Source: Amoebidium appalachense (taxonomy: Eukaryota; Protista; Ichthyosporea). From it: 64,000 nt of DNA. Below, in pieces: positions 49,701 through 52,700 of the stretch; the first letter of the stretch is position 1, and every line of letters starts with the position of its first letter. The stretch is from positions 6,761,888 to 6,825,887 of the forward strand of contig CAVNZM010000005.1 in assembly GCA_963693365.1 (NCBI GenBank). Direction: 5' to 3'. Position numbers and translations under genes: made by a program. The notes under the pieces were generated by a model, which saw nothing but the letters and a program-made list of their open reading frames with translations, had not been told where the DNA came from and searched no databases.

Positions 49701-52700
49701 ATAATTTTATAGGCAGAGCTAGGGCAAATTAAAATCCTCATTCGAATAGCCATGATCGGGTCTAGAATGGGAGAAGCAATGGTTGGTTTCAGCCCCCAAA
49801 AAATTACACACAGGTCAAAAGACAAAAAATTAGAAACCCCCCCAAAAATGCAGTTCGGTTACCCTTGTAGCTGGAAAGGCCGGAGAGGAGAAAAGACGGC
49901 GGGAAGAATATAGAGCGCGATACGCAGTACCACTACACGACGAGAAACACTGTGCAGGACATATGCAAAAGCAAACATAGAAGTATCCAACATAAACAAC
50001 ACTTAATATTAGTATGCAACATAAGGAAGTCCGGGGGGGGGGGGGGGGGGGGGGGGGGGGGGGGGGGAGGGGGGGGGGGGGGGGATCTTACGCGATCGAA
50101 GTCAGATCACGAAACAACAACGCCAAACCCACCGACTTTGTCCACCGAACCAGCGCAACTTCGTCGGGAGACGCCGCCTGATAATCGACCCCCCCATCCT
50201 CCATAACTACAGGCGTCACGTTGTGACATAAACCCACAGCAATCACCAAATTCGCAACGCGGGCACTACCGCTACTGCTACTCCCCACCCCGGCAAGGAA
50301 AAAATCGCCCCCGCGGCCGGAAAATGATGAGGGGACAGGGGAGGAGAGGAGGTTTGGTGAGGAAGGGGTAAGGTGGGTGGTAGGGTAGAGGGCCTCTCGA
50401 AGTTGGTCTCGAAGGTCGTCGAGGGTCTCGGGGGAATAGGACACGGTGCCCAGGTGGAGCTTGCTGCGGTGTGTGTGTGTGTGTGTGTGTGGCGGGAGGG
50501 GGGATGGGGAGGGGGAGGGAAGATGGGTGGGGGCTGGGGCGAGGGGAGGGAGGGATGAAAGGGGGAAGGGGGGAGGGGGTGTGAGTTGTGTGAAGGGCAA
50601 GGAGGGAGAGGGGGGGGGGGGGGGGGGGGGGGGGTTTGAATGCGTCATAAAGTACGAAGTACACAAGAACGACGGATAACACGATGCAGAATGCAAACCA
50701 TACATAAAGAGTATGCATAATAAGCAGAGCCCATCCTCAGGGGGGGCCCACGTCATCCACAGTACCCGAGTTTCGACCCATTCACCTCGTTAACGAAACC
50801 CAACTTAGATACTGTTTCACTTGAACATGGGTGGGTCACCCGTCTTGATCAGAAACGAGCAGGGTTACTTATGCAGGCAAGGGCAGTGAGAAAGGCCGGG
50901 GATTAAAGTTGCAGCAGTAAGCAGAAGCAAGAATAATATAGATAGGAACTCAGGAGACGGGGCTTCTGGGAAGCTCGGGGGGGGGAGGGGGGGGGGGGGG
51001 GGGGGGGGGGGGGGGAAGAGGGAGGGGCGGGTTAGAATGTGTTATAGAGTGAGAAGCTCAAAACCATAACGGAAAACACATCACAAAGAGCAAACCACAC
51101 ATGGGGGGAGGAGGGCGGGGGGGGTAGAATGATTTGCAATGTACGCAGTACACAGTCATAACGATTAACACAAAACGGAGAGTGCAACCCACACATGGGA
51201 AGGGGGGGGGGGGGGGGGGGAGGGGGGGGGAGAAAGGGGGTGTATGTGTGTGTGTGCGTGGGGGGGGGGGGGGGGGGGTTGAATGCGGAACACAGTACGA
51301 AGTACGCATACACGATGAGAAGCATGGTACAGGACACATGCAAAGGCAAACATTCAAGTATGCAGCATCAGCCATGCGCACAGTATGCGTCATAAGCAGA
51401 GCCCATCCTCAGGGAGGGCCCAAGTCATCAATTGCGTCTGAGTTTCGACCCCTTAGCCCGCGTATATACGACGCTCCAACTCAGACAGCAGCATCAACTG
51501 AACTTGGGCGGGTCAACCCGTCTTGATCAAAGACGAGCAGGGTTGCTTATGCAAGCAAGGTGAGCAAAACGGTGAAGATGTATGTGCAAACTAATGCAGT
51601 GCAGCGACAAACGCGTATGTGCTTACAGATGCACGACACAGAGCAACCATGCCCGGTTGCATGGAAGTAAAGATGGGGGAACACACCGGAAGACCATCTC
51701 ATTCTGTGTGAGTGTGCCTGTCTTGTCTGTGAGCAGATACTGCACCCTTCCCAGCTCCTCCGGTATGGTGGATGTGCGCACTACAGTGGAGGGGATGGTG
51801 GGGTCACTGTGGATGCAGTGGGTGTAGAAGGTCTTGGCCATGTCAAGGTTGACCCTGTGTGTGTGTGGGTGTGTGTGTGTGTGTGGGGGGGGGGGGGGGG
51901 GGGGGGGGGGGGGGGGGAAGGGGGTTAGAATGCATTACAGTGTGTGTGTGTGGGGGGGTGACTGGTGTGGTGGTTTGGGGGGGGGGGGGGAGGGGGGAGG
52001 AAGGGGGGGGGGGGGGGGGGATGGGGGGAGGGTTGGTGTGGATGCAGTGTTTCGAATGTCTTGGCCATGTCAAGGTTGACCCTGTGTGTGTGTGTGTGTG
52101 TGTGTGTGTGTGTGTGTGTGTGTGTGTGTGTGTGTGTGTGTGTGTGTGTGTGTGTGTGTGTGTGTGTGGCGGGGGGGGGGGGGGGGGGGGGGGGGTTAGG
52201 AGGGACGGGCGTGTGTATGTGTAGGTGAGTGGGTCACTGTGGTTTTGCAGTGTTTGTCGTGTATAGGCCATGTCAAGGTTGACCCTGTGTATGTGTGGGG
52301 GTGGATGGATGGGTGGGTGGGTGAGTGGGCACGCTCGGAGGGAAGGAGGGGTGTGTGTGGGGGGAGGGGGGGGGGAGGGTGATGTGTCTGTGTGTGTTTG
52401 TTGTGTGTGGGTGTGTATGTGTGGGTGGGTGTGTGTGTGTGTGTGTGCGCGCGCACGTGCGCCAGGGTGTGTTGTCGGGGGGGGGGGGGGGGGGGGGGGT
52501 TGTGTGTGTCTGTGCAGATGTGTGTGTGTGTGTGTGCGTGCCGCTGTCTGTGTGGTGGTGTGGGAGAAGGGGGGGGGGGGGGGGGGGGGGGGGGGAGAAT
52601 CTGGTGCACAGTACACAGCCCGAGAACACGACTGGCCGTTAGCAGAGCTGGTGAAAGTGGGAAGGTAGGCAGAAGGGTTAAACTCATAAAAACGTTCAGG

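What the first reader, a model, noticed from the sequence alone, without database searches (positions are those of the whole stretch)
50715..51552. Copies B and C lie sense in one NEO1 intron; copy C is the best-paired ribozyme candidate
Seen: copy C has perfect Watson-Crick stems (GUCUGAGU/ACUCAGAC, GCCCAAGU/ACUUGGGC, GGAG/CUCC, CAUAAGCA/UGCUUAUG), with CUGAGGA at 51412-51406 and a predicted cut at 51478/51477. Copy B (CUGAGGA at 50740-50734) has a stem III mismatch. Both are co-transcribed within intron 51686-50464. Inference: if active, especially as a dimer, they would cut a housekeeping pre-mRNA inside an intron, so splicing must outpace or tolerate cleavage.
Basis: partly seen in the sequence, partly recalled or inferred. 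Interest (0 to 1): 0.7.

Follow-up and report, generated by a model that had tools for sequence, protein, structure and literature searches.

The report
Split-core hammerhead repeats inside an intron
Two copies of a very common repeat, likely the tail of a jumping gene, sit in an intron that is spliced out of a housekeeping gene, and each carries a hammerhead-like RNA wired in an unusual order that is predicted to cut mainly when two matching copies pair up, so these two mismatched copies are likely passengers.

Summary
All four stems, both CUGAGGA boxes, B's mismatch, the NEO1-type gene and the intron are at the stated coordinates, and a contig from a probable RNA run joins the two exons exactly. 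B and C are 5'-truncated copies of two subfamilies of a very high-copy repeat that ends in CATTCAA plus a C-run, likely a Penelope-like (Naiad/Chlamys) element; no reverse transcriptase was found. The RNA has every hammerhead core base in a non-circular order, with the core opened between A9 and G10.1: stem II comes from an upstream strand. Stems I, II, III and the I-helix each show a compensatory change. A kink-turn with near-fixed arm lengths joins the I-helix to stem III. Rough geometry says one copy cannot close with that arm formed, but a dimer could. A C+B pair has a mismatch in each core. C pairs well because it matches its subfamily, not because it is special. I read the same wiring by eye in published Naiad consensi said to lack canonical hammerheads. 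Cleavage is untested. The ribozyme wiring is the interesting part; the intron location is likely incidental.

The parts
50464..51686 (-). GT-AG intron (1223 nt) of the NEO1/ATP9-type P4-ATPase gene
51687..51853 (-). upstream NEO1 exon (coding part up to the donor site)
51279..51672 (-). copy C: 5'-truncated repeat, C-type subfamily; starts after a short C-run, ends in CATTCAA plus a C-run
51540..51551 (-). C: 5' strands of clamp helices P1 (51551-51544) and P2 (51542-51540)
51516..51538 (-). C: hairpin P3, just before the strand that supplies G10.1
51510..51514 (-). C: stem II 5' strand GACCC (G10.1 = 51514), detached from CUGAGGA
51499..51509 (-). C: I-helix 5' strand, ending in the k-turn C-stem UCA
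51494..51498 (-). C: predicted k-turn loop GUU and G1b/A2b
   Evidence: definition from PMC4316175
51474..51486 (-). C: block S: stem III 5' strand, U16.1 (51479), U17 (51478), predicted cut 51478/51477, stem I strand GGAG
   Evidence: cut site by analogy, untested
51452..51473 (-). C: linker from block S to block G, with a short self-complementary hairpin
51436..51451 (-). C: block G: stem II 3' strand GGGUC, GAAA (51446-51443), stem III 3' strand
51418..51429 (-). C: k-turn G2n/A1n (51429/51428) and I-helix 3' strand
51405..51416 (-). C: stem I strand CUCC, CUGAGGA (51412-51406), extra U (51405)
51391..51404 (-). C: 3' strands of P2 and P1
50636..50977 (-). copy B: 5'-truncated, A/B subfamily, 95% identical to A; G10.1 50837, k-turn loop from 50821, predicted cut 50802/50801, GAAA 50774-50771, CUGAGGA 50740-50734, stem III mismatch A50806.C50768
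51035..51196 (-). two short decayed 3'-end pieces between C and B (51128-51196, 51035-51102)
43410..44199 (-). copy A in a later intron of the same gene: longest copy, intact motif, predicted cut 43577/43576, CUGAGGA 43515-43509

Best explanation
B and C are 5'-truncated copies of a very high-copy repeat, likely the 3' end of a Penelope-like retroelement that inserts at C-runs, and each carries a complete set of hammerhead core bases in a split, non-circular order that is predicted to cut mainly when two matching copies dock, so this mismatched pair would cut weakly and the intron is likely an incidental landing site. Shown: the strand order is stem II 5' strand, I-helix, block S, block G, I-helix, stem I strand with CUGAGGA, then a clamp (P2/P1) that closes the opening between A9 and G10.1. 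Inferred: the I-helix, a kink-turn and stem III form one long bent hairpin whose tip (S and G) cannot reach its own base (the G10.1 strand and CUGAGGA), but can reach the base of a second copy. In a full element with a pseudo-LTR copy upstream and a 3' copy downstream, two matched copies would assemble, cut, and release a unit-length RNA with its ends held together. A lone or mismatched intron copy would stay mostly uncut.
For: All core bases in 3 of 3 full copies. One compensatory change each in stem II, the I-helix and stem III and in stem I (A-U in C, G-C in A/B). Family variants at the stem II pair 43608/43554 occur at similar low frequency (2.7% and 4.1% in X1, 3.2% and 2.7% in X6; unphased). 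The motif is 79.5% identical between C and A against 48.6% upstream and 58% downstream. Among 5 CUGANGAUGGG boxes in the window only N7 varies. K-turn sequence in the same polarity in 3 of 3, with 16 nt from G10.1 to the loop, 15 nt from A1n to C3, and 16-17 and 16 nt on the stem III arm. Estimated monomer gap 56-61 A (assumed A-form values). High copy: 13,639 contigs of X1 lie on C, summed depth 1-2 million against 42 on the exon (not a copy number). Depth falls towards the 5' end, and joints return from the 3' end to internal starts. 3' end resembles two (C)n-targeting Chlamys consensi, which end in AACCCCC. Extra base after A9 and dimer action are Penelope hammerhead traits (PMC4209133); GAAACUC/GAGU-U cores occur in Hydra-clade motifs. 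Same split order read by eye in 7 Naiad consensi. Spliced product exists.
Against: No cleavage data; the runs found are contigs only and cannot show RNA ends. No reverse transcriptase or GIY-YIG domain among 109 window frames scanned of 221 listed, so the Penelope assignment rests on structure of the insertions and on the RNA. The geometry is a hand estimate. Opening the I-helix arm costs only about 10, 3 and 4 kcal/mol in C, A and B in a nested model, while stems I and II give about -13, -12 and -14 as duplexes, so a monomer with the arm open is not excluded. With three sequences the covariation control is weak (25 of 500 shuffles reach it). P1 and P3 have unpaired cells, and one P3-breaking variant reaches 11-16% in X6. 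None of the 5 truncated, motif-overlapping pieces found with the A query starts at the predicted cut. The Chlamys passages read showed no such motif.
Confidence: 0.5

Rival explanations
1. Each copy is an active monomer: the I-helix/k-turn arm opens or bends, the core closes on itself, and C cuts the NEO1 pre-mRNA inside the intron. The gene survives because splicing is faster or the exons stay tethered.
For: C has all core bases and full stems I, II, III. The nested-model cost of opening the arm is similar to or smaller than the two pseudoknot stems. Natural type-SGC ribozymes cleave at 0.007-0.13 per min, some with no linker between the I-helix and stem III (PMC10085705); such rates are slow enough for splicing to compete. 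The CPEB3 intronic ribozyme is a precedent (PMC10919898, start of abstract only).
Against: The I-helix and stem III of C are 91% and 98% paired in the nested ensemble. Arm lengths and the k-turn are kept across subfamilies, which is odd if the arm must melt. Family pieces lie sense in introns (10 of 10 hits in the NEO1 span, 3 of 3 in the AsnRS span), which suggests little cost to the host.
Confidence: 0.25
2. The fold is conserved for another job, such as a binding site for the element's reverse transcriptase or for an L7Ae-family protein, and does not cut at a useful rate because the opening between A9 and G10.1 disrupts the core.
For: The split breaks an assumption of PMC10085705 that no more than one or two bases lie between CUGAnGA and its stems. 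Rfam gives no hammerhead at gathering score and only 14.2 bits against 34 for A. Truncated copies do not start at the cut. Penelope minimal hammerheads cut poorly in vitro.
Against: Every catalytic base is kept and only N7 varies. The three core stems covary in register with the core. Unsplit CSG-like and split forms both appear among Naiads (by eye).
Confidence: 0.15
3. The RNA reading is right but the carrier is another target-primed element (a Hero/RLE-type LINE or a SINE riding on one, or an endonuclease-less Penelope element) rather than a Naiad/Chlamys-type element.
For: No protein evidence either way. Earlier unchecked notes report a similar k-turn-bearing motif in Hero elements. 5' truncation is common to all target-primed elements (established knowledge).
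Against: No poly(A) tail; the 3' end and C-run target match (C)n-targeting Chlamys elements; partial tandem joints are seen.
Confidence: 0.15
4. B and C have been recruited to regulate NEO1 by timed cleavage of the pre-mRNA.
For: Three full copies lie sense in this one gene.
Against: C matches a very abundant subfamily and B carries a private defect; similar pieces lie in other genes; nothing locus-specific is conserved in the data I have.
Confidence: 0.03

Closest known systems
Type-SGC and type-CSG non-circularly permuted hammerheads (Eckert et al. 2023, PMC10085705; read main text parts 3-5 of 8)
   Same: Order S, G, then CUGAnGA; pseudoknotted stems I and II; a helix joining the far ends of stems I and II; same core bases.
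   Different: Here the stem II 5' strand is detached from CUGAGGA and lies upstream of S; P2/P1 and hairpin P3 fill the A9-G10.1 gap; the S-to-G linker is about 20 nt, not about 3; a k-turn joins the I-helix to stem III; it lies in a eukaryotic genomic repeat, whereas theirs came from metatranscriptomes and metagenomes.
Penelope-like element hammerheads (Cervera and de la Pena 2014, PMC4209133; read parts 1-2 of 4)
   Same: Near the element's 3' end; extra base after A9; G10.1-C11.1; proposed to act as dimers of tandem copies.
   Different: Those are nested type I motifs that dimerise through a short palindromic stem III; here stem III is long and the predicted exchange is of stems I and II.
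Naiad/Chlamys Penelope-like elements (Craig et al. 2021, PMC8557442; read abstract, section 9, passages, supplement parts 1, 2, 28 and five supplement searches)
   Same: 5' truncation, partial tandems, microsatellite targets; (C)n-targeting Chlamys end in AACCCCC; by eye, 7 Naiad consensi carry the same split order and 3 an unsplit CSG-like one.
   Different: The paper reports no canonical hammerhead in Naiads and most Chlamys, Naiads only in animals, and lists no ichthyosporean (0 occurrences of two such terms). Here a Naiad-type RNA sits with a Chlamys-type target in a likely ichthyosporean host. No parent protein found.
[quoted passage not shown]
   Same: A self-cleaving candidate inside a pre-mRNA intron.
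   Different: The two hammerheads are conserved across species at their loci; B and C are copies of a mobile, very abundant family.

Membership tests
Hammerhead ribozyme | C3 U4 G5 A6 N7 G8 A9, G12 A13 A14 A15.1, U16.1 H17 | tested here: met
   3 of 3 full copies
Hammerhead ribozyme | Stems I, II, III next to the core with G10.1-C11.1 and U16.1-A15.1 | tested here: met
   met when G10.1 comes from the upstream strand; compensatory change in each stem
Hammerhead ribozyme | A9 joined to G10.1 directly or through 1-2 bases | tested here: not met
   bases after CUGAGGA-U give only G-C, G-U, then G.G against the stem II 3' strand; contiguous descriptor 0 hits
Hammerhead ribozyme | Match to Rfam hammerhead models | tested here: not met
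   none at gathering score; 14.2 bits against 34 in A; none in B/C
Hammerhead ribozyme | Site-specific self-cleavage after NUH | not testable with these tools
   only contigs available
Type SGC (Eckert 2023) | Order S, G, C and a helix joining stems I and II | tested here: met
Type SGC (Eckert 2023) | Uninterrupted block C | tested here: not met
Type CSG (Eckert 2023) | CUGAnGA upstream of S | tested here: not met
   only the stem II strand lies upstream of S
Standard k-turn | 3-nt bulge, tandem G.A and A.G, C-stem and NC-stem | tested here: met
   3 of 3; -1b:-1n A:U; 3b:3n A:G in A/B, U:U in C; NC stem of C has a C.A (rules)
Standard k-turn | Folds to a tight kink with ions or L7Ae-family protein | not testable with these tools
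   sequence rules predict ion folding for A/B
Penelope-like element (Naiad/Chlamys) | Penelope-type reverse transcriptase with N-terminal GIY-YIG | tested here: inconclusive
   none in 109 frames scanned; frame 44108-43896 gave no useful homologue; no whole genome held
Penelope-like element (Naiad/Chlamys) | Frequent 5' truncation with a shared 3' end | tested here: met
Penelope-like element (Naiad/Chlamys) | Partial tandem insertions (pseudo-LTRs) | tested here: inconclusive
   head-to-tail partial pieces at 4048/4211 and 43411/43258, and single-contig joints back to internal starts; no full element to define a pseudo-LTR
Penelope-like element (Naiad/Chlamys) | Insertion bias for microsatellites, (C)n in Chlamys | tested here: met
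   C-runs follow the 3' end in 6 of 8 pieces listed with the A query and C-rich sequence precedes several 5' ends

The most novel reading that the evidence does not exclude
A hammerhead with its core opened between A9 and G10.1 is built on a k-turn arm of fixed length so that it can only cut as a swapped dimer (or trimer). It acts as a copy-number sensor: tandem, transposition-ready transcripts are cut and can be circularised, while thousands of lone intronic copies stay silent. It supplies the ribozyme reported missing from Naiad-type elements and extends that RNA to a single-celled relative of animals.
Probability: 0.3. Interest if true: 0.82.

Novelty: new variant of a known kind. Interest (0 to 1): 0.62.

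Why it matters
If it cleaves, it adds a strand order that the published six-permutation scheme excludes and shows that the hammerhead backbone can be opened at A9/G10.1. It would also explain why descriptor searches missed ribozymes in Naiad-type elements. A geometry-enforced dimer would explain how a genome tolerates very many sense intronic copies, and it is directly testable: single copy against matched and mismatched tandems, with the natural C+B transcript as a ready mismatched control. The intron location alone is ordinary.

Tried and rejected
Canonical type I, II or III and contiguous SGC folds: no usable stem II after CUGAGGA; other types were ruled out by strand order, not by a search. 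Rfam: one weak snoZ122 hit elsewhere, nothing here. Pattern scans: 86 metagenome loci and 1 viral locus, 0 of 87 fit the split or contiguous descriptor; a few (L009, L033, L052, L069, L071) look like ordinary tandem minimal hammerheads. Repeat finder was swamped by microsatellites. Frame 44108-43896 as the tail of an element protein: 0 of 21 candidates scored; 5 hits came from short stretches summed over repeats in unrelated proteins; the atlas did not answer. The 606-aa frame at 19976-18159 has no Pfam match and no homologue among 7992 candidates. No pile-up of starts at the predicted cut; contigs cannot show RNA ends, so this is no test of cleavage. Palindromic linker hairpins as a dimer handle: possible, but B and C differ there, so not used. 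Not-in-print searches: searches found no paper describing a split core; the library lacks most subscription journals, and I did not see the supplements of PMC10085705 or of the bioRxiv retrozyme preprint (10.64898/2026.07.22.740005, read part 2 of 5).

Full report
Observation. The gene is a NEO1/ATP9-type flippase: the exon before the intron matches yeast Neo1 at E 2.6e-20, and later exons carry the expected Pfam domains. The intron runs from GT at 51686 to AG at 50464. A 3697-nt contig of run X10, which the tool guesses to be RNA, matches 51687-51850 with no difference and continues straight into the 50463 exon. So the intron is removed as stated. The two best of 2936 hits to a C-terminal exon are from Sphaeroforma arctica and an entry whose prefix I recall as Creolimax, at 68% and 66%, narrowly ahead of fish proteins. 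The host is therefore likely an ichthyosporean, a single-celled relative of animals. No whole genome is held.

What B and C are. They are two of three full copies in the window; A lies at 43410-44199 in a later intron of the same gene. A profile of the 3' end finds 16 pieces in 64 kb. They share an end, CATTCAA or a close variant followed by a C-run, and differ in where they start. In public runs the family is very abundant: 13,639 contigs of X1 lie on C, with summed depth of 1-2 million against 42 on the adjacent exon. The tool warns this is no copy number; I read it only as thousands or more. Depth falls from the motif towards the 5' side of A, and single contigs join the 3' end back to internal starts. 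A and B are 95% identical; C is another subfamily, 79.5% identical to A in the motif but 48.6% upstream and 58% downstream. This pattern fits a target-primed retroelement. Craig et al. (PMC8557442) describe Chlamys elements as 5'-truncated, partly tandem and often targeted to (C)n, and two such consensi end in AACCCCC as these do. No reverse transcriptase was found in 109 of 221 listed frames, and a short frame upstream of A gave nothing usable. The Penelope assignment is an inference.

The RNA. All hammerhead core bases are present in 3 of 3 copies, with GUU at the predicted cut. The order is S (stem III, cut site, stem I), then G (stem II, GAAA, stem III), then CUGAGGA. That is the non-circular SGC order of Eckert et al. 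(PMC10085705). It differs in one defining point. The bases after CUGAGGA-U do not make stem II: they give G-C, G-U, then G.G, and instead pair with the 5' end as P2/P1. Stem II is made by GACC(C/U), which lies upstream of S behind hairpin P3. The backbone is thus open between A9 and G10.1, which that paper assumed not to happen. A descriptor for this split core, written after the fact, hits only A, B and C in the window, against 1 hit in 300 shuffled windows; a contiguous SGC descriptor hits nothing. Of 45 pairs, 95.5% of cells pair, against 32-44% when slid; stem II, the I-helix and stem III each hold one change on both sides. Stem I holds another, hidden there by a gap but seen by coordinates. 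With three sequences the shuffle control is weak (25 of 500). Family reads add a minor variant pair in stem II at similar frequencies, and an I-helix pair 51509/51418 whose A and U variants reach 33% and 36% in X1 but 47% and 26% in X6, with a further variant at 51509 that does not restore a Watson-Crick pair with the reference base; all unphased. No variant passes the thresholds in the core boxes. Against: a P3-breaking variant reaches 11-16% in X6.

The hinge. Earlier unchecked notes mentioned a kink-turn in similar motifs, so I looked. All three copies have a 3-nt loop, G1b/A2b and G2n/A1n in the same polarity between the I-helix and stem III, though loop and flanking pairs differ between subfamilies (definition and about 50 degree angle from PMC4316175; folding rules from PMC8191799). 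Arm lengths are kept: 16 nt from G10.1 to the loop and 15 nt from A1n to C3 in all three, 16-17 and 16 nt on the stem III side. Taking 2.8 A per pair, three layers for the core and stem II stacked on stem III (established hammerhead geometry), the base of the I-helix lies 56-61 A from the top of stem II, to which it is joined with no linker. One copy cannot close with this arm formed. Two copies can in principle, the tip of each docking on the base of the other. This is a hand estimate. A monomer with the arm open remains possible: the nested-model cost is about 10, 3 and 4 kcal/mol for C, A and B, against about -13, -12 and -14 for stems I and II as duplexes, without loop penalties.

Consequences for the intron. 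Cross-pairing shows that C's tip on B's base has an A.C at the third pair of stem I. B's tip on C's base has a 3-pair stem I ending in G-U, plus B's own stem III mismatch. A C+B dimer would be weaker than a matched one. B and A match better but lie 7.2 kb and several introns apart. C's good pairing is mostly its subfamily's common state. B's mismatch is absent from A and below 4% in the family. Spliced product exists, and family pieces lie sense in introns, so the host tolerates them.

Comparison. Penelope hammerheads lie near the 3' end, keep an extra base after A9 and are proposed to act as dimers (PMC4209133). Craig et al. found no canonical hammerhead in Naiads and flagged 'half cores'. 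Among 18 supplement passages I read by eye the same split order in 7 Naiad consensi (by file order Bfor, three Acropora, two octopus, and one unnamed near part 12) and an unsplit CSG-like order in 3; the rest showed nothing. Chlamys passages showed no such motif. These readings were not computed. Collection scans found no relative (0 of 87 loci). Seven literature searches found no description of a split core. Notes of this scan report the same wiring in other genomes (140 findings); they are leads, not support. It works like a type-SGC hammerhead but fails that type's uninterrupted-block test, so I do not file it there.

Verdict. Most likely (0.5) this is a split-core permuted hammerhead in the tail of a Penelope-like element, cutting mainly as a matched dimer, with B and C as passengers. 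An active monomer that splicing tolerates is the main rival (0.25). Novelty: new variant of a known kind. Interest 0.62, owed to the wiring, the k-turn arm and the host group, not to the intron.

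Noticed in passing
window 40800-55200 and 1470-9500: Family pieces lie sense to the host gene: 10 of 10 hits in the NEO1 span (two are halves of C) and 3 of 3 in the AsnRS span. Sense-strand C-runs against G-runs are 46:18 and 18:15, and pieces cluster, so part of the bias is target supply.
   Followed up: partly
window 48074 and 37592 (minus): A further subfamily with CUGAUGA-U-GGG and a different 3' tail, truncated at the C-run before the box.
   Followed up: partly
window 34657-34742 (+), 13190-13147 (-), 4048-4328 (+), 11254-11365 (-), 45819-45912 (-): Older truncated or decayed copies; many start at the C-run before CUGANGA, probably by short homology with the target run (47 contigs end there in X6).
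   Followed up: partly
window 44260-44110 (minus): The 5' part of copy A has a GT-rich stretch and a pyrimidine tract ending in AG, like an intron kept inside the element, followed by a 71-codon frame (44108-43896) of unknown meaning.
   Followed up: partly
window 18159-19976 (minus): Intronless 606-codon frame in an AT-rich stretch with no Pfam match and no homologue found.
   Followed up: partly
window 59963-60047 (+): Rfam snoZ122 C/D snoRNA match just over the gathering score (43.5 against 38).
   Followed up: no
window 1470-9500, 27146-33140, 37898-38419: Neighbouring genes: asparaginyl-tRNA synthetase, BRF1/TFIIB-like factor, weak GNAT match.
   Followed up: no
L009, L033, L052, L069, L071: Tandem minimal hammerhead-like repeats whose two core halves are letter-for-letter those of this motif but in nested order.
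   Followed up: no
PMC8557442 supplement, Naiad consensi: Three Naiad 3' ends read by eye as unsplit type-CSG-like hammerheads, a type so far known from two metagenome sequences; the octopus split forms also show a k-turn-like loop at the same hinge, in the opposite polarity.
   Followed up: partly
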